Virus record (IMG/VR): IMGVR_UViG_2630968543_000005
DNA length: 42,783 nucleotides
Source: a virus
Taxonomy: Duplodnaviria; Heunggongvirae; Uroviricota; Caudoviricetes
Direction: 5' to 3' (one strand)
The notes below the pieces were generated by a model. That model had not been told where the DNA came from, did not search any database, and saw nothing but the letters and a program-made list of their open reading frames with translations. The position numbers and the translations under genes are program-made. Positions 3,950 to 39,293 of this stretch are shown piece after piece; position 1 is the first letter of the stretch; every line of letters begins with the position of its first letter.

Positions 3950-4011
3950 GTTGGTTTTTCTCCACGGATTTACTGACAACCGAAGCCCTGACTGTTCCCG
4001 CAGTTGGGGCT

Positions 4012-4233
4012 TCACTGTTTTTGTAAGTCACTGTAGCTATAAAGCCACTGACCACTCATTTTTGATTTGATTGACTCTACTGAATCACGGCAAGGAATAA
4101 TTCCACCTGACATCATTCTGATCTCCGTAAATTCACCACTCCTTATCGACTCAATGCCATTAACGTTAACTAAAGATTTACCTCTACCAAGTGCATTCTC
4201 ATAGCCAATCTCATCAACCTCGATAAACTTCAT
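4012..4233 (-). CDS. Hypothetical small protein between arc and ant
   Basis: 73-aa ORF, ATG overlaps arc stop (ATGA), GAGGGGA RBS; no recognisable family. Confidence 0.35.
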
Positions 4234-27554: not shown

Positions 27555-28154
27555 AACACGCTTTCGAGTCCTTTTAGATTTTTCCTTAAGATATTCCGCA
27601 AGTTTATCCTCATCATTATTAAATTGAGATAAAAGCTCATGCTCGCAATTAAGTGCTTTACTCGCATAAGTTCCATATAGTTTCTTTCTTGCTAGTGCTG
27701 CTATGAATGCTGCATCTTCTTTGCTATCGAAATACCCTAACGATATTGTCTTATTTTTATAACCAACATAAGACTTCCACCTGCCAGTTGTCTTATCCCA
27801 AGACACTCCAATCGCACCGGATGTGTTTAACCTATTCCCTACAATGTTTCTTGCATTCTGCTCCTCTGTTGCCAGTCTTAGATTTGAAATCCTATTGTCA
27901 AGTCTGTTCCCATTTACATGATCAATAAACTTAGGAGGCCATTTTTTGTATACATAGAACCAAGCAAGTCTATGCGCATAATACAAAACATTATTTATGC
28001 TAATGCATATATAACCACCACTAACACCTCCAGCAATACTACCTTTTACTCTTACTACTGAATTTGTTTTTAGCCATTTAAATATTCCTGTTTCTGAGTC
28101 ATATGATAATGTTGACAGAAGCTCATCGTGATCAATTAGTTTTTTTATTCGCAT
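27543..28154 (-). CDS. HNH homing endonuclease with AP2 domain (paralog of 23275-23787)
   Basis: 203 aa; HRLAWFYVYKKWPPKFIDHVNGNRLDNRISNLRLATEEQN and GVSWDKTTGRWKSYV..LGYFDSKEDAAFIAALA. Confidence 0.7.
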   Translation of the reverse strand: MRIKKLIDHDELLSTLSYDSETGIFKWLKTNSVVRVKGSIAGGVSGGYICISINNVLYYAHRLAWFYVYKKWPPKFIDHVNGNRLDNRISNLRLATEEQNARNIVGNRLNTSGAIGVSWDKTTGRWKSYVGYKNKTISLGYFDSKEDAAFIAALARKKLYGTYASKALNCEHELLSQFNNDEDKLAEYLKEKSKRTRKRVKKR

Positions 28155-28215
28155 AAAGAATATACTTAATAATATATACAGTAAGAACCATTAGTAACGA
28201 TAACTGGATTTGCCC

Positions 28216-29572: not shown

Positions 29573-31453
29573 TTAATACTCCGTCACGTTTTCCTGTCGC
29601 CACGCCTCGTCATATTCCGATTTCGGCATATTGGCGATGTAGCTATATGGCGATCCTGATTCAAGTTGCAGGAACTGGTGCGATTGCTCGTCAAGGAACA
29701 ACGGGATACCACCTTCCCAACCTTCACCGTTACGTTGTTTTTCAAGCAACAAAACAGATGCCGGAGACACCAGTAGCTGTTCGTCCTTCTCTGACATCTG
29801 TTCACCGCTTTGAACTCTCTGTAACGCTCTCTCGCGAGCCTTGTTACGCCAGATGATAAAAAGGTTGTCTGTCAGGTCTGTTATCGCTCCAGAGCCTTTT
29901 ACGTCCATTTTCCCGGTTGGTTTTTCTTCGCTGTCTCCTTTTCGCGAGTGAGTAACGAGAATGACGTGGGAGTTTGTTTTGTTTTTGAAGTCGCAAATCG
30001 AGTCAACAAACGCCTTCTGCCCGTTATAGTCATCGTCGCCTATGCCACATTTCATCAGGCTGTCGATGATGAATAACTGGATCCCGTATCGGCGGCGAGC
30101 GTAGTCGAATATTTCGATCAGCCTGTCGGCTTTCGCCGTTCCGGTCAGGCCAAACACCCAAAGTCTTTCGTCATAAAATTTAAATGCAGAGTCAATTTCC
30201 AGCACTGGCGGCATCTTGCAGCACGTCGCCTGACGGGTAAGTCGCTTAAGGAGAATGCCTGGCTTCAGCTCAAGTGACGCGATGCACGTCTTCACACCCT
30301 GACGCATTGCCTCAAGTGCCATATGCCCGACAACCTCCGTTTTTCCGTGACCGTTCACACCATTGACCAGCGTAAACTCTGCCTCACGGAACTGGAATTT
30401 ATCTGCCAGAGATTCCCACGGTGGATTAAACAGATACTGCTGCTTGCCGTAGAAAGCGTTGATAGTGTCCTGGTAAAACTCGCGCGCGCTGTAGAGTTCT
30501 TCAGGATCGAAGTAGGATGCCGTGCCGATGTACTGCCAGATTTCATCCTCGGTAACACCGTTCATCAGGCATTCGTTGATGTCTTTGTACGGCAGAGTAA
30601 CAAGACGGCAACGATGTTCACCGAGTCGGCTTGCGATTTCCCTTGCGGCTTCACGACCAACATCATCAACATCCATCGAGATGAATATTTCCTCAAACCT
30701 GTCGAGGTTGTGATACTCAAACTCAATCCACTGTTGCTTAGCGCCTTTCCCGCCACCAAACGGCACGGATAACGCCGAGATGCCGTATTGCGCATAGCTC
30801 ATACAATCAATTTCGCCTTCGCAAAGTACAACCGCCCTCACGCCAGCGTCCAGAGCCTGCCATCCGAACAGACAAGGTTCGCAATCACCTTCTGCCATAA
30901 TGACTTTCTTCCCGTCCGGGCGCTCAGTGCTGATTCGCTTGACCTGCAACAACTCACCATCGCGTTTGTACGGAATCACCAGAGCATCCAGTTCCCGTTC
31001 TCCATTCCACACCTTGCCGCTGACAACCTCGTAGCGCTTTACGACTTCTGGCGATATGCCACGCGATTGCAGGTACTCAAGATGGGATTCTGTTCTGGTA
31101 ACGTAGCGGGCGATTTTCTTGCGGTCAGGTCTGGAGAATTTCTTCTCACGTTTGGCATCGAAATGGTGATCGTCATCCTTGATTCCGAGAAAGGCTTTCG
31201 CTTCCTGCATAGCCTGATGCAGGTTAATTCCACGACATGCCATCCACAAATCAAGCATGTCACCGCCGTCTCCCTCAGCGAAATCAGCCCATTTTTTCTT
31301 GCCGCTAAGGTTGACCTTAAGGCTGTTTCCCTTGTCACCGTTGACGTTACCGGCAACCCACTCATGCCCCTCTTTTTTGCCGTTTGGCAACAGGTGCGGA
31401 GCCACCCTGTCAACCTGCGACCAAAGCAGGTCACTGAGTTCACTTGGCGTCAT
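29573..31453 (-). CDS. Replicative primase-helicase (primase-like N-terminal region + DnaB/RepA-like ATPase)
   Basis: 626 aa downstream of O-like gene; Walker A VNGVNGHGKT, Walker B LFIIDSLMK. Confidence 0.65.
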   Translation of the reverse strand: MTPSELSDLLWSQVDRVAPHLLPNGKKEGHEWVAGNVNGDKGNSLKVNLSGKKKWADFAEGDGGDMLDLWMACRGINLHQAMQEAKAFLGIKDDDHHFDAKREKKFSRPDRKKIARYVTRTESHLEYLQSRGISPEVVKRYEVVSGKVWNGERELDALVIPYKRDGELLQVKRISTERPDGKKVIMAEGDCEPCLFGWQALDAGVRAVVLCEGEIDCMSYAQYGISALSVPFGGGKGAKQQWIEFEYHNLDRFEEIFISMDVDDVGREAAREIASRLGEHRCRLVTLPYKDINECLMNGVTEDEIWQYIGTASYFDPEELYSAREFYQDTINAFYGKQQYLFNPPWESLADKFQFREAEFTLVNGVNGHGKTEVVGHMALEAMRQGVKTCIASLELKPGILLKRLTRQATCCKMPPVLEIDSAFKFYDERLWVFGLTGTAKADRLIEIFDYARRRYGIQLFIIDSLMKCGIGDDDYNGQKAFVDSICDFKNKTNSHVILVTHSRKGDSEEKPTGKMDVKGSGAITDLTDNLFIIWRNKARERALQRVQSGEQMSEKDEQLLVSPASVLLLEKQRNGEGWEGGIPLFLDEQSHQFLQLESGSPYSYIANMPKSEYDEAWRQENVTEY

Positions 31454-31560: not shown

Positions 31561-32421
31561 TCACCTGTCGAAAAACACGTAGCCAGTTTTCGATACGGTG
31601 ATTGCGGATGATGGTTTGGATTGTGGTTGAATAGTTTCTGGCTTCTCGTCGTTCCAGCGCTGACCGTTCAGGTAGCTCGATGGTAACAACCTGTCGAATC
31701 CGAACTGCTTACCATTCCTGCATGCGATGTCTTCTGCCAGCATCGTGGCAAACTCGCTTGCCGTACCCCTGGTAGTTTTACGCCATTCCCTGAACTGTGT
31801 TCTGAATGCCGAAGCTGCGTTTTTCTTCCCGGCTTTCCGCATGCCTGCACACCAGAATATTTCCTCGAATGCCTTGTCGGTTTCTTCGTGACGGTCAGGT
31901 GATTTTTCACACTCCGTCCGAACACTTTCGGACATAGTGTTTTTATTATTTCTTTTTTCTTTTGTAATAGTTTCTTTTGTGTGTCCCTGTTTTGGTGACA
32001 GCGCTGTCACCGTTTTGGTGACACTTTTTGTCACCAATGCAGTGACATTATCACCAGAGTAGTGACACCCTTCGATTTGCCATTCCTCGATGTTCTTGTT
32101 AGGCCCGATTTGCTGGCCTTCGCGAAGGATAACCTTCATCGCGATAAGCTCATTCTTGGCCTTGTTTACCTTCTGTCTTGGCAGCCTGGTAATTTGAGCT
32201 AACTGACTATCAGAGATGCGATCCATCTTTTTACCGTAGCCGTATGTTTTACGGCATATGGCGTGGGCAACCTTGCTCTGATTTTTCGTTAAATCTGCGC
32301 CGATAAGCTCTTCATACAGGGCATTTGCAAGACGGGTATAACCATCTTCAACTTCTGCCACACGACGCTCCACAGGCCGTTGTGAAGGCCTTAAATGTGT
32401 TACGGTTGCAATATTACTCAT
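31561..32421 (-). CDS. O: Replication initiator, lambda O-like N-terminal domain
   Basis: 286 aa; ..[65 protein letters not shown] resembles lambda O N-terminal domain; C-terminal part differs. Confidence 0.8.
31941..32070. repeat. Replication origin candidate: AT-rich tract plus GGTGACA/TGTCACC iterons inside O gene
   Basis: AT-rich 31941-31980; GGTGACAGCGCTGTCACC (31994-32011), GGTGACACTTTTTGTCACC (32017-32035), GTGACATTATCAC (32042-32054), GTGACA (32062-32067) at ~23-bp spacing. Confidence 0.55.
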
Positions 32422-32560
32422 GACCTTTCTCCTTCTGCATCAGCTTCACTTTTTCCAACTCAGCCCGGAATCGACCAGGCTGCTTGAAGCTGGACAGGAA
32501 GCGATCACGTAGTATGTGTTTGTGAATTTTGTCCTGGTAAGGACTGAGTTGTTTTGTCAT
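32414..32560 (-). CDS. Hypothetical small protein between cII and O
   Basis: 48-aa ORF with AGGAG RBS, stop overlaps O start. Confidence 0.3.
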
Positions 32561-32592
32561 AATTACTCCTGTGGATTGATCCAGTAATGACC

Positions 32593-32889
32593 TCAGAATT
32601 CCATCTGGATTTGTTCAGAACGCTCGGTTGCCGCCGGGCGTTTTTTATTGGTGAGTCCATCAAGCGCATACTTAAAAGCCCTGCTAATCGGACTGATGTC
32701 TGATGCCATTCCGAAAGCACACAAGACCGAAGCAATAAATCTCCAGTCCGTTCTGCTTATCTTCGATTCATGACAGCCAATCATCTTTGCCAGACCGCGC
32801 TGGGTAAGCGTTGACAGGTTGATGAGTAAATCTGTTTCTGCGCGATCAACGTCGCGCTGTGATAGTTTGCTGTAACTTGTTTGTTCCAT
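32593..32889 (-). CDS. cII: CII transcriptional activator
   Basis: 98 aa; C-terminus ..[20 protein letters not shown] as in lambda CII; HTH ..[14 protein letters not shown].. Confidence 0.85.
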
Positions 32890-34015: not shown

Positions 34016-34045
34016 AACCCGACCTTAGCGTCGGGTTTTCTTTTT
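34016..34045 (+). terminator. Rho-independent terminator after cI
   Basis: AACCCGAC-CTTAGC-GTCGGGTT followed by TTCTTTTT. Confidence 0.55.
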
Positions 34046-34110
34046 CCAAAATATAAATCAATAAAATACAAAGTGTTATAAAAAACTAACCACATTTAGA
34101 ACATTTTGTA

Positions 34111-38747: not shown

Positions 38748-39293
38748 ATGAAACAAATGTCACTAATTGAGATGGATGGATTCCTGAAAGGTAAATGCAT
38801 CCCAAGCGATTTAAAGGTTAACGAAACAAACGCTGAATATCTGGTGCGTAAATTTGCTGAAGCGGAGGCCAAGTGCGCGGCGCTGGCGGCGGAGAGTGCG
38901 CTGGCTCGTAAGGCAGTTCAGGCATTCTGCGATGTTGTTGGCGACAACACCGAGGTTATCTGTGAGGCGGTTGGGAGAGATGGCGTTCTGGTTATTTTGG
39001 AGGCCATGAAGGCAACAGGAAATATGTCAGCCACCGACGCTTTCCTGGCTGAAATACGTGCGGAGGCACGCAACGAGGGGATTAACTACACCGCAAGCCG
39101 TCTTGCTGCTGCGTTCAATCACGGATTTATCAATAAGTCTTTGCGTGAAGTTTTCGACGTTACACGCATGATTTTGTCAGCGAAAGAAGAGTTGGCTAAT
39201 GAACCGCATCCGATTGATGGCCTGTCCGGTGAATATGCGGAGAAATCCCTTGAAGAATGGGCGGAACAGATTCGCAAAGGAGGCAACCAGTGA
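38748..39293 (+). CDS. Hypothetical protein
   Basis: 181 aa, Ala-rich helical. Confidence 0.4.

What the first reader, a model, noticed from the sequence alone, without database searches (positions are those of the whole stretch)
31941..32070. Iteron array and AT-rich tract inside the O-like gene: probable replication origin with non-lambda iteron sequence
Four palindromic GGTGACA-N4/5-TGTCACC units at about 23-bp spacing lie inside the O coding sequence next to a 40-bp AT-rich tract. The arrangement mirrors lambda ori, but the repeat sequence differs from the lambda TCCCTC iteron even though the O N-terminal domain is lambda-like. The encoded linker shows matching VTK repeats.
Basis: partly seen in the sequence, partly recalled or inferred. 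Interest (0 to 1): 0.4.

Follow-up and report, generated by a model that had tools for sequence, protein, structure and literature searches.

The report
Lambdoid phage origin with non-lambda iterons
This is almost certainly the phage's DNA replication start site, built exactly like phage lambda's (four protein-binding repeats plus an easily melted AT-rich stretch inside the initiator gene) but with a different repeat sequence that matches a different version of the initiator protein; it is an ordinary, widespread, experimentally untested member of a well-known kind.

Summary
The repeats and the AT-rich tract are real and far beyond chance. They sit inside a Phage_rep_O gene (31561-32421, minus strand), right after its DNA-binding domain.

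The correct unit is the 19-bp palindrome TGTCACC-N5-GGTGACA, which occurs four times. Start-to-start spacing on the O strand is 20/24/23 bp, identical to lambda's four iterons. The array runs into the same ACACAAAAGA..ACTATTAC AT-rich tract as lambda.

- **DNA-level signal:** the repeats fall in three different codon phases.
- **Conservation:** across 71 distinct related arrays from many Enterobacterales, half-sites are conserved even at wobble positions.
- **Match to the initiator:** all 65 non-redundant initiators with TGTCAC iterons carry LPRQKVN at the predicted recognition helix. Other iteron classes (lambda, P22, HK97, N7, phiEt88) carry other motifs. The non-lambda iteron is therefore expected, since the N-domain is only about 50% identical to lambda's.
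- **Modularity:** the N-domain/iteron module recombines at the AT tract with at least four helicase-recruitment modules. Here that module is an ES18-type C-domain with a Toprim/DnaB-like primase-helicase.

The same origin is present, unannotated, in Sf101, mEp043, SEN22 and 174 of 5,426 complete E. coli genomes.

Verdict: an ordinary lambdoid origin of an uncharacterised specificity class. No binding or replication test exists.

The parts
31561..32421 (-). O-like replication initiator gene (286 aa) that contains the origin
   Evidence: ORF listing. Pfam Phage_rep_O at aa 20-114, E 1.2e-37. 49% identical to lambda O over aa 1-157. 68% identical to ES18 gp59 overall, with the C-terminal half nearly identical.
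32074..32421 (-). Coding region of the N-terminal origin-binding domain (aa 1-116), predicted winged helix
   Evidence: AlphaFold2 model: pLDDT 77-91 for aa 41-110. Secondary structure is H46-60, H71-78, H82-94 and strands 98-101/104-107. Foldseek against PDB returned only weak matches, best E 9.7e-3. The top-ranked ones were winged-helix regulators such as CRP and MarR.
32140..32184 (-). Codons for aa 80-94 ([15 protein letters not shown]): the turn plus helix 3, the candidate recognition helix that reads the TGTCAC half-site
   Evidence: LPRQKVN is invariant in 63 distinct TGTCAC-type N-domains and differs in every other iteron class. All 65 alignable non-redundant TGTCAC-class proteins carry it, and none of the 45 TGTCTC-class proteins does. 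It maps to helix 82-94 of the model. Its role in recognition is inferred.
32049..32067 (.). Iteron 1 (first on the O strand): TGTCACT-ACTCT-GGTGATA, 2 mismatches to the consensus
   Evidence: O-CDS position 355-373, codon phase 0. Aligns with lambda iteron 1.
32029..32047 (.). Iteron 2: TGTCACT-GCATT-GGTGACA
   Evidence: O-CDS position 375-393, codon phase 2.
32005..32023 (.). Iteron 3: TGTCACC-AAAAC-GGTGACA, a perfect palindrome with the same AAAAC centre as lambda iterons
   Evidence: O-CDS position 399-417, codon phase 2.
31982..32000 (.). Iteron 4: TGTCACC-AAAAC-AGGGACA. The outer half-site is degenerate and lies 2 nt from lambda's AGGGGGA at the same position.
   Evidence: O-CDS position 422-440, codon phase 1. 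Nearly invariant across 71 related arrays, at 1.91 bits per half-site column, although it was not part of the search pattern.
31940..31979 (.). AT-rich tract (GC 0.15, A-rich on the O strand), the presumed DNA-unwinding element. It also encodes the conserved [10 protein letters not shown] linker and is the recombination joint between modules.
   Evidence: The stretch ACACAAAAGA.ACTATTACAAAAGAAAA is shared with lambda, ES18, PhiR12_1 and Proteus phage BPM-V3. Identity profiles switch at this point.
31909..31940 (.). 14-nt-arm inverted repeat (ACACTCCGTCCGAA / TTCGGACATAGTGT) that abuts the AT tract, at the place where lambda has its palindrome
   Evidence: I5, 86% complementary. The GTCCGAA..TTCGGAC core is also present in ES18. 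Other C-terminal module types show a GC-rich inverted repeat at the same place. Membership in the origin is inferred by analogy.
31564..31944 (-). C-terminal domain of O (aa ~160-286), ES18 type, the presumed docking surface for the phage primase-helicase
   Evidence: At least 90% DNA identity to ES18 from CDS position 481 onward. In 37 related loci this C-domain class is followed by the primase-helicase class. It is never followed by the P, DnaB-like or DnaC-like classes.
29573..31453 (-). Primase-helicase (626 aa, Toprim plus a DnaB-like/AAA_25 ATPase), the partner presumably recruited to the origin
   Evidence: Pfam Toprim_2 at 3.2e-12 and AAA_25 at 2e-6. DnaB_C at 1.9e-4 falls below the family cut-off. 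ES18 gp61 is annotated as a putative primase/helicase similar to T7 gene 4.

Best explanation
The region 31909-32067 is the phage's origin of theta replication. It belongs to the lambdoid 'origin inside the initiator gene' kind but to a different specificity class from lambda.

Proposed mechanism:
1. Dimers of the O-like initiator bind the four 19-bp palindromes TGTCACC-N5-GGTGACA through the winged-helix N-terminal domain. Helix 3, beginning LPRQKVN, probably reads the TGTCAC half-site.
2. The resulting nucleoprotein complex (an 'O-some') destabilises the adjacent 40-bp AT-rich tract.
3. The C-terminal domain of O recruits the phage's own Toprim/DnaB-like primase-helicase, encoded just downstream, to the opened DNA. 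In lambda that step uses P plus host DnaB instead.
4. Transcription of O from the early rightward promoter passes through the origin, as it does in lambda.

Shown here: the anatomy, the position-for-position correspondence with ori-lambda, DNA-level conservation, the association of iteron class with N-domain class, and the association of C-domain class with the partner gene.

Inferred, not shown: binding, unwinding, helicase recruitment and origin firing.
For: - **Anatomy:** four iterons plus an AT tract lie inside a Phage_rep_O gene, directly after its DNA-binding domain.
- **Geometry:** start-to-start spacing on the O strand is 20/24/23 bp. Lambda's annotated iterons at 39034/39054/39078/39101 have exactly the same spacing. 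The two arrays align column for column and share the CAAAACAGGG..ACACAAAAGA.ACTATTACAAAAGAAAA junction.
- **Curated precedent:** the ES18 record annotates a rep_origin 'similar to lambda ori' at the equivalent place in gene 59, whose C-terminal half is the same as in this O gene. P22 gene 18 likewise carries a rep_origin feature.
- **DNA signal, not peptide repeat:** the iterons start in codon phases 0/2/2/1.
- **Wobble conservation:** in 71 distinct related arrays, third-codon positions inside the half-sites of iterons 1 and 4 carry 1.66 and 1.86 bits. Those two iterons were not part of the search pattern. Third positions in the preceding 240 nt of the N-domain carry 0.61 bits.
- **Context:** 126 of 143 database stretches with two adjacent TGTCAC-N7-GTGACA units lie inside O-like ORFs, all with the same 43-nt geometry.
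- **Covariation with the initiator:** each O N-domain type has its own palindrome:
  - lambda/ES18: TCCCTC
  - phiEt88: TGTTAC
  - N7: TGTCTC
  - HK97 type: TTAGCC
  - P22: TTTACC
  - Gifsy-1: TCCCCG
  - phi80-like: TTCCCG
. The helix-3 motif tracks the iteron class, 65/65 for TGTCAC and 45/45 for TGTCTC, with no crossovers.
- **Modularity:** the same N-domain/iteron module is joined at the AT tract to C-domains that each co-occur with one partner gene:
  - primase-helicase: 37
  - DnaB-like helicase: 31
  - lambda P: 16
  - DnaC/IstB-like: 8+3
.
- **Literature:** lambdoid origins lie in the middle of O and consist of iterons plus an AT-rich region (PMC7466680). O-type proteins vary with origin specificity, and each binds different iterons within its own gene (PMC8022706). 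The N-terminal 162 aa of lambda O bind the origin (PMC2629481).
Against: - No experiment exists for this iteron class. Neither O binding nor origin activity has been shown. Text searches for the repeat sequence together with 'iteron' found nothing relevant.
- The association between helix motif and iteron class could partly reflect common descent of linked modules rather than direct read-out. Omnitron shares ISRSKAN with phiEt88 yet has TGTATCC repeats.
- The structure model is only moderately confident (mean pLDDT 66.5), and no fold match reached E <= 0.001.
- Iterons 1 and 2 of this particular window lack the central A-tract that the class consensus has.
- Recruitment of the primase-helicase by the C-domain rests on co-occurrence only.
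Confidence: 0.88

Rival explanations
1. The array does bind O, but its main role is regulatory: titration or handcuffing of the initiator, autoregulation, or exclusion of related phages. The origin actually used by the primase-helicase replisome lies elsewhere.
For: Ectopic lambda iterons are known to inhibit replication of rep-lambda phages (PMC3349717). The helicase here is not the lambda P/DnaB system, so the downstream mechanism need not copy lambda's.
Against: The AT-rich tract and flanking palindrome adjoin the array exactly as in ori-lambda. The C-domain class of O co-varies strictly with the helicase or loader gene, which makes sense if O delivers that partner to its own binding sites. 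No second iteron cluster exists in the window.
Confidence: 0.07
2. The DNA repeat is a by-product of a repetitive, flexible peptide linker (VTK repeats) selected at the protein level.
For: The linker does read [17 protein letters not shown]. Other O proteins also have repetitive linkers.
Against: - The units sit in codon phases 0/2/2/1 at 20/24/23-nt spacing, so one DNA word is read in three frames.
- Wobble positions within half-sites are far more conserved than wobble positions in the folded domain, 1.66-1.86 against 0.61 bits.
- The linker peptide changes completely between classes, in step with the palindrome.
Confidence: 0.02
3. The palindromes act as RNA hairpins or terminators, for example by attenuating O mRNA or terminating antisense transcripts.
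For: The consensus scan flagged 31993-32012, 32005-32023 and 31916-31933 as terminator-like on the + strand.
Against: Those hits are simply the iteron palindromes followed by T-rich spacers, on the strand antisense to O. The scan is permissive, finding 8 sites against 2.5 expected in 2.1 kb. The sequence of the arms, not just their pairing, is invariant across 62-100% diverged relatives. No Rfam family matches here.
Confidence: 0.02

Closest known systems
Bacteriophage lambda ori-lambda and O protein
   Same: - The origin lies inside the initiator gene, directly after the Phage_rep_O domain.
- There are four ~19-bp palindromic iterons with identical 20/24/23-bp spacing and an AAAAC centre.
- The adjacent ~40-bp A-rich tract has a near-identical sequence (ACACAAAAGA.ACTATTACAAAAGAAAAAAG).
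- An inverted repeat lies beyond the tract.
- The upstream cII, oop and small-ORF context is the same.
   Different: - The half-site is TGTCAC instead of TCCCTC.
- The N-domain is only 49-53% identical, and the helix-3 motif is LPRQKVN instead of LPVKRCN.
- The C-terminal domain is unrelated.
- The partner is a Toprim/DnaB-like primase-helicase instead of P, which loads host DnaB.
Salmonella phage ES18 gene 59 origin (also epsilon34, g341c)
   Same: The C-terminal half of O is at least 90% identical at the DNA level. The same small ORF and primase-helicase lie downstream. The record annotates a rep_origin inside the gene.
   Different: ES18 carries lambda-type iterons and a lambda-type N-domain. 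The two phages share only the helicase-recruitment module. The joint between modules falls in the AT tract.
Phages Sf101, mEp043, SEN22, vB_EcoP-720R6 and the PhiR12 series
   Same: These carry 98-99% identical O N-domains and iterons. This is the same origin.
   Different: None of these records marks an origin; the mEp043 record has no rep_origin feature. The Sf101 paper does not discuss one. The PhiR12 phages join this module to a lambda-type C-domain with P and ren.
Origins in P22 gene 18, the HK97-type O gene and the Stx-phage (933W/P27) O gene
   Same: They have the same architecture, each with its own iteron sequence or number (PMC8022706; PMC7466680).
   Different: The half-sites differ: TTTACC in P22 and TTAGCC in the HK97 type. 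Stx phages have six lambda-type iterons. Some relatives within the TGTCAC class also have five or more units.
Iteron origins of theta plasmids (R6K, pSC101, F and P1 Rep proteins)
   Same: The logic is the same: repeated initiator-binding sites next to an AT-rich unwinding element, bound by a winged-helix initiator. This comparison rests on established knowledge.
   Different: Plasmid iterons are direct repeats outside the rep gene and are bound by Rep_3-type proteins. Here the repeats are palindromes inside the gene of a Phage_rep_O protein.

Membership tests
Lambdoid phage origin (ori inside a Phage_rep_O initiator gene) | Lies within the coding sequence of an O-type initiator, immediately after the N-terminal DNA-binding domain | tested here: met
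   The iterons occupy O-CDS nt 355-440. Pfam Phage_rep_O covers aa 20-114.
Lambdoid phage origin (ori inside a Phage_rep_O initiator gene) | Array of four or more ~19-bp inverted-repeat iterons at ~20-24-bp spacing | tested here: met
   Four units with 0-2 mismatches to the consensus. Spacing is 20/24/23 bp, identical to lambda.
Lambdoid phage origin (ori inside a Phage_rep_O initiator gene) | ~40-bp AT-rich region directly downstream of the last iteron on the O strand | tested here: met
   31940-31979 has GC 0.15. The sequence is nearly the same as lambda's AT-rich region.
Lambdoid phage origin (ori inside a Phage_rep_O initiator gene) | Inverted repeat flanking the AT-rich region on the far side | tested here: inconclusive
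   Arms 31909-31922 and 31927-31940 are 86% complementary. The core is kept in ES18. Whether this repeat is required is not known.
Lambdoid phage origin (ori inside a Phage_rep_O initiator gene) | Iteron sequence co-varies with the initiator's N-terminal domain | tested here: met
   Nine classes were seen, each with its own helix-3 motif. TGTCAC pairs with LPRQKVN in 65 of 65 alignable non-redundant proteins, and TGTCTC pairs with L/ISRQNVN in 45 of 45.
Lambdoid phage origin (ori inside a Phage_rep_O initiator gene) | Iterons conserved at the DNA level beyond what coding requires | tested here: met
   Codon phases are 0/2/2/1. Wobble positions in the half-sites carry 1.66-1.86 bits against 0.61 bits in the domain.
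Lambdoid phage origin (ori inside a Phage_rep_O initiator gene) | Initiator binds the iterons and the fragment supports initiator-dependent replication | not testable with these tools
   This needs EMSA or footprinting and a plasmid replication assay. No published test of this class was found.
Lambda specificity group (rep-lambda: lambda, 434, ES18, epsilon34, Stx1 phages) | Iterons of the form TCCCTC-N5/6-GAGGGA recognised by a lambda-type O N-domain | tested here: not met
   The half-sites are TGTCAC/GTGACA. The N-domain is 49-53% identical to lambda's, and helix 3 differs. Only the outer half of iteron 4 resembles lambda's.
Lambda-type helicase delivery (O C-domain, P, host DnaB) | Lambda-type O C-terminal domain followed by a Phage_lambda_P gene | tested here: not met
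   The C-domain is unrelated to lambda's. The downstream gene is a Toprim/AAA_25 primase-helicase. Relatives such as PhiR12_1 do have the lambda arrangement.
Theta-plasmid iteron origin (Rep_3/RepA/pi type) | Direct-repeat iterons outside the rep gene, bound by a Rep_3-family initiator | tested here: not met
   The repeats are palindromes inside the gene. The only Pfam match is Phage_rep_O.

The most novel reading that the evidence does not exclude
The TGTCAC class would be a functionally orthogonal origin/initiator specificity group. It is widespread in Enterobacterales prophages. It would be one step in a natural series (TGTCAC, TGTTAC, TGTATC, TGTCTC) in which one or two bases per half-site change together with a handful of residues around helix 3: N33, L80, P81, Q83 and V85. 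If so, these residues form a readable specificity code for Phage_rep_O winged-helix initiators. The conserved AT-rich linker would then be the universal recombination joint that lets any origin-specificity module pair with any helicase-recruitment module.
Probability: 0.5. Interest if true: 0.4.

Novelty: new member of a known kind. Interest (0 to 1): 0.25.

Why it matters
It locates the replication origin of a common group of E. coli, Shigella and Salmonella P22-like and lambda-like prophages. The fragment occurs in 174 of 5,426 complete E. coli genomes and in many other Enterobacterales, where annotation currently says only 'replication protein'.

It also gives a clean natural data set for how winged-helix phage initiators change DNA specificity, and for how origin-recognition and helicase-recruitment modules are shuffled at a conserved AT-rich joint. 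That is useful for annotation, for predicting replication incompatibility or exclusion between co-resident prophages, and for building orthogonal lambdoid replicons.

It does not change the understanding of how such origins work.

Tried and rejected
- **PDB sequence search with O:** no meaningful hit. The best was a chance match to a HAUS subunit at E 0.7.
- **Rfam on the whole window:** nothing in the origin region, only sar RNA elsewhere.
- **Promoter/terminator scan:** it flagged the iterons and the flanking palindrome as terminator-like on the antisense strand. I rejected these as artefacts of palindromes next to T-runs.
- **Literature searches:** queries for the repeat sequence, for ES18, Sf101 or epsilon34 with iterons, and for the primase-helicase found general statements but no description of this iteron.
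- **The 80 closest IMG/VR relatives:** all are >=99% identical in the N-domain, so they are too similar to say anything about conservation. I replaced them with DNA-pattern scans, which reached 62% identity.
- **The search for homologous proteins:** it returned mostly short partial proteins. These sufficed only for a modest alignment, so the structure model has moderate confidence and Foldseek gave no significant match.
- **First iteron-class tabulation:** the first attempt used a wrong DNA segment and is superseded (replaced).
- **Loose scan for TGTTAC arrays:** it returned mostly unrelated environmental contigs. Only five O-like genes were usable.
tested and rejected.

Full report
**What is in the sequence**

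The finding lies inside a 286-aa ORF on the minus strand (31561-32421). Residues 20-114 of that ORF match Pfam Phage_rep_O at E 1.2e-37.
- Upstream on the same strand are a DUF2740 ORF, a cII homologue and a cro-like gene. A divergent S24 repressor completes the lambdoid early-right layout.
- Downstream is a 626-aa Toprim plus DnaB-like/AAA_25 protein at 29573-31453.

Repeat finding and a pattern search give four 19-bp palindromes matching TGTCACC-N5-GGTGACA, at 31982-32000, 32005-32023, 32029-32047 and 32049-32067. They have 2, 0, 1 and 2 mismatches.
- No other site in the 42.8-kb window matches at <=2 mismatches. At <=3 mismatches there are 6 matches against 1.54 expected.
- The hexamer GTGACA is not over-represented overall (19 found, 20.7 expected), yet six copies fall within 73 bp here.

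The stretch 31940-31979 has GC 0.15. It is one of only three places in the window with a 40-mer at GC <=0.175. A 14-nt-arm inverted repeat (31909-31922 / 31927-31940) abuts it.

Four complete units exist only in the other register.

**Correspondence with lambda**

On the O-coding strand the iterons start at CDS positions 355, 375, 399 and 422, giving spacing of 20/24/23 bp. Lambda's annotated iterons start at 39034, 39054, 39078 and 39101, which is the same 20/24/23 spacing.

A five-way alignment shows the arrays are collinear.
- Unit centres share A-rich spacers. Iterons 3 and 4 have lambda's exact AAAAC.
- From the centre of iteron 4 onward the sequence is nearly identical in the window, lambda, ES18, PhiR12_1 and a Proteus phage (CAAAACAGGG..ACACAAAAGA.ACTATTACAAAAGAAAA).
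- The outer half of iteron 4 (AGGGACA) differs by two bases from lambda's AGGGGGA.

The ES18 GenBank record marks a rep_origin 'similar to lambda ori' at the equivalent place in gene 59. P22 gene 18 carries a similar feature.

**A DNA signal, not a peptide repeat**

The four units begin in codon phases 0, 2, 2 and 1. The VT repeats in the linker ([17 protein letters not shown]) are therefore a consequence of one DNA word being read in different frames.

To obtain diverged relatives I scanned IMG/VR and GTDB genomes for two adjacent TGTCAC-N7-GTGACA units.
- Of 143 stretches, 126 lie inside an O-like ORF, all with the same 43-nt geometry.
- Of the other 17, 16 have 41-, 42- or 44-nt geometry. 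The remaining one (L172) has the 43-nt geometry and looks like a TGTCAC array lying near a contig end.
- The hosts include Xenorhabdus, Photorhabdus, Providencia, Serratia, Pantoea, Erwinia, Rahnella, Tatumella, Trabulsiella, Shimwellia, Arsenophonus and Enterobacter.

This gave 71 distinct canonical arrays whose N-domains are 62-100% identical to the window's, with a median of 73%.
- Iterons 1 and 4 were not part of the search pattern. Their half-site columns carry 1.59 and 1.91 bits, against 0.92 and 1.73 for the centres.
- Third-codon positions within those half-sites carry 1.66 and 1.86 bits. Third positions in the preceding 240 nt of the folded domain carry 0.61 bits.

That is selection on the DNA sequence itself.

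**Why the iteron is not lambda's**

The N-domain is 49% identical to lambda O over the 161-aa BLASTP alignment, and 53% over aa 1-116.

Comparison of O genes across phages shows that each N-domain type has its own palindrome at the same place:

| Phage or type | Half-site |
|---|---|
| lambda, ES18 | TCCCTC |
| phiEt88, Midgardsormr38 | TGTTAC |
| Omnitron | TGTATC |
| N7, Pocitis76 | TGTCTC |
| HK97 type | TTAGCC |
| P22, PhiR26_1 | TTTACC |
| Gifsy-1 | TCCCCG |
| phi80-like HK225 | TTCCCG |

- In 63 distinct TGTCAC-type N-domains, residues 80-86 (LPRQKVN) are invariant.
- Every other class differs there: ISRSKAN, LSRQNVN, LPVKRCN, MAPTKCS and IHHTHVC.
- Among non-redundant proteins, all 65 alignable TGTCAC-class members have LPRQKVN. 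All 45 TGTCTC-class members have L/ISRQNVN. None are crossed.

An AlphaFold2 model has mean pLDDT 66.5, and 77-91 for aa 41-110. It gives a winged-helix layout: H46-60, H71-78, H82-94 and a beta hairpin at 98-107. This places LPRQKVN at the turn and start of helix 3.

The Foldseek matches are weak (best E 9.7e-3); the leading ones are winged-helix regulators such as CRP and MarR.

The identification of the recognition helix is therefore an inference. The class association may also partly reflect co-inheritance: Omnitron shares ISRSKAN with phiEt88 but has different repeats.

Published comparisons already state that O-type proteins vary with origin specificity and bind different iterons within their own genes (PMC8022706; PMC2629481).

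**Modular structure and likely mechanism**

Identity profiles along the O gene show where the modules join.
- PhiR12_1 is 96-100% identical for CDS 1-450 and unrelated afterwards. It has a lambda-type C-domain followed by P and ren.
- ES18 is 36-73% identical up to about position 420 and at least 90% from 481.
- The Proteus phage BPM-V3 is 93-100% identical only across iterons 3-4 and the start of the AT tract.

The joint is therefore the AT-rich tract.

Across 112 complete O genes of the TGTCAC class, C-domain clusters pair with downstream genes:

| C-domain type | Downstream partner | Loci |
|---|---|---|
| ES18 type | primase-helicase | 37 |
| P22/HK97 type | DnaB-like helicase | 31 |
| lambda type | Phage_lambda_P | 16 |
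| two other types | IstB/DnaC-like ATPase | 8 + 3 |

The best-supported mechanism is this. O dimers bind the four palindromes through the N-domain. The complex opens the AT tract. The C-domain then brings in the phage's own primase-helicase.

The anatomy and the associations are shown here. Binding, opening and recruitment are inferred from lambda (PMC7466680; PMC3349717) and from co-occurrence.

**Rivals**

- **Peptide-repeat origin:** contradicted by the phase and wobble data.
- **RNA hairpin or terminator role:** rests only on permissive consensus hits on the antisense strand. It does not explain why the arm sequence is invariant.
- **Purely regulatory O-binding array with the true origin elsewhere:** cannot be excluded without experiments. 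It is disfavoured by the adjoining AT tract, the lambda-identical geometry and the absence of any other iteron cluster.

**Novelty**

The same origin is present at 98-99% identity in Sf101, mEp043, SEN22, vB_EcoP-720R6 and the PhiR12 phages. It is also in 174 of 5,426 complete E. coli genomes, where it is annotated only as 'replication protein'.
- The mEp043 record has no origin feature.
- The Sf101 paper does not discuss one.
- Text searches found no description of this iteron.

It is thus a new, meaning uncharacterised and unannotated, member of a thoroughly known kind. A specialist would not be surprised. The modest extra value lies in the graded series of iteron classes with their matching helix-3 motifs, and in the clear picture of module exchange at the AT tract.

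Noticed in passing
window 3950-4016 (+): Rfam sar RNA (RF00262) at 87.7 bits, the P22 immI antisense RNA. Together with CUS-3/HK620-like virion genes in 1-24513, this marks the window as a P22-like phage or prophage with a mosaic early region.
   Followed up: partly
window ~32553-32650 (+), terminator stem 32617-32644: Homologue of lambda oop antisense RNA and its terminator, 93% identical to the lambda oop region. It lies between the cII and O genes on the opposite strand. Rfam reported no match in this region.
   Followed up: partly
L126 8435-11341 (IMGVR_UViG_2737471865_000001): The primase-helicase orthologue is 968 aa instead of 626. A 342-aa insertion follows the Walker-A GHGK. It starts with Cys, ends with His-Asn, is followed by Thr, and has LAGLIDADG_3 and Hint matches. 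This is an intein in the P-loop.
   Followed up: yes
L118 7643-8137 (and one similar locus): A 164-aa HNH/NUMOD4 homing-endonuclease-like ORF follows directly after O, in the position where related loci have the primase-helicase gene.
   Followed up: partly
window ~28131-28193 and ~34035-34092: These are the only other places in the window with 40-mers at GC <=0.175. The second lies just beyond the repressor gene, toward the N-like region. Not examined further.
   Followed up: no
L122/L147, L124/L163, L185, L229, L233, L235 (match coordinates): Arrays of TGTCAC..GTGACA palindromes with 41-, 42- or 44-nt periodicity lie outside any O-like gene. They come from unrelated viral and bacterial contigs, including a Clostridiales MAG and a Corynebacterium. 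They may be iterons or operators of other elements.
   Followed up: no
L100, L107, L236; L166, L200 (arrays printed): Some members of the TGTCAC class have five or more iterons, or a variant centre (TGTCACC-ACGGT-AGTGACA). This parallels the six-iteron origins of Stx phages.
   Followed up: no
L089 874-1694 (Escherichia phage vB_EcoS_phi330): The HK97-type O gene is split into two annotated CDS. In my translation the reading frame breaks just after the iteron/AT region. This is either a frameshift or a sequencing error.
   Followed up: no
window 32414-32421: The O start codon overlaps the end of the upstream 48-aa DUF2740 ORF by 8 nt, which suggests translational coupling. The same arrangement is annotated in mEp043, P22 (orf48) and others.
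   Followed up: no
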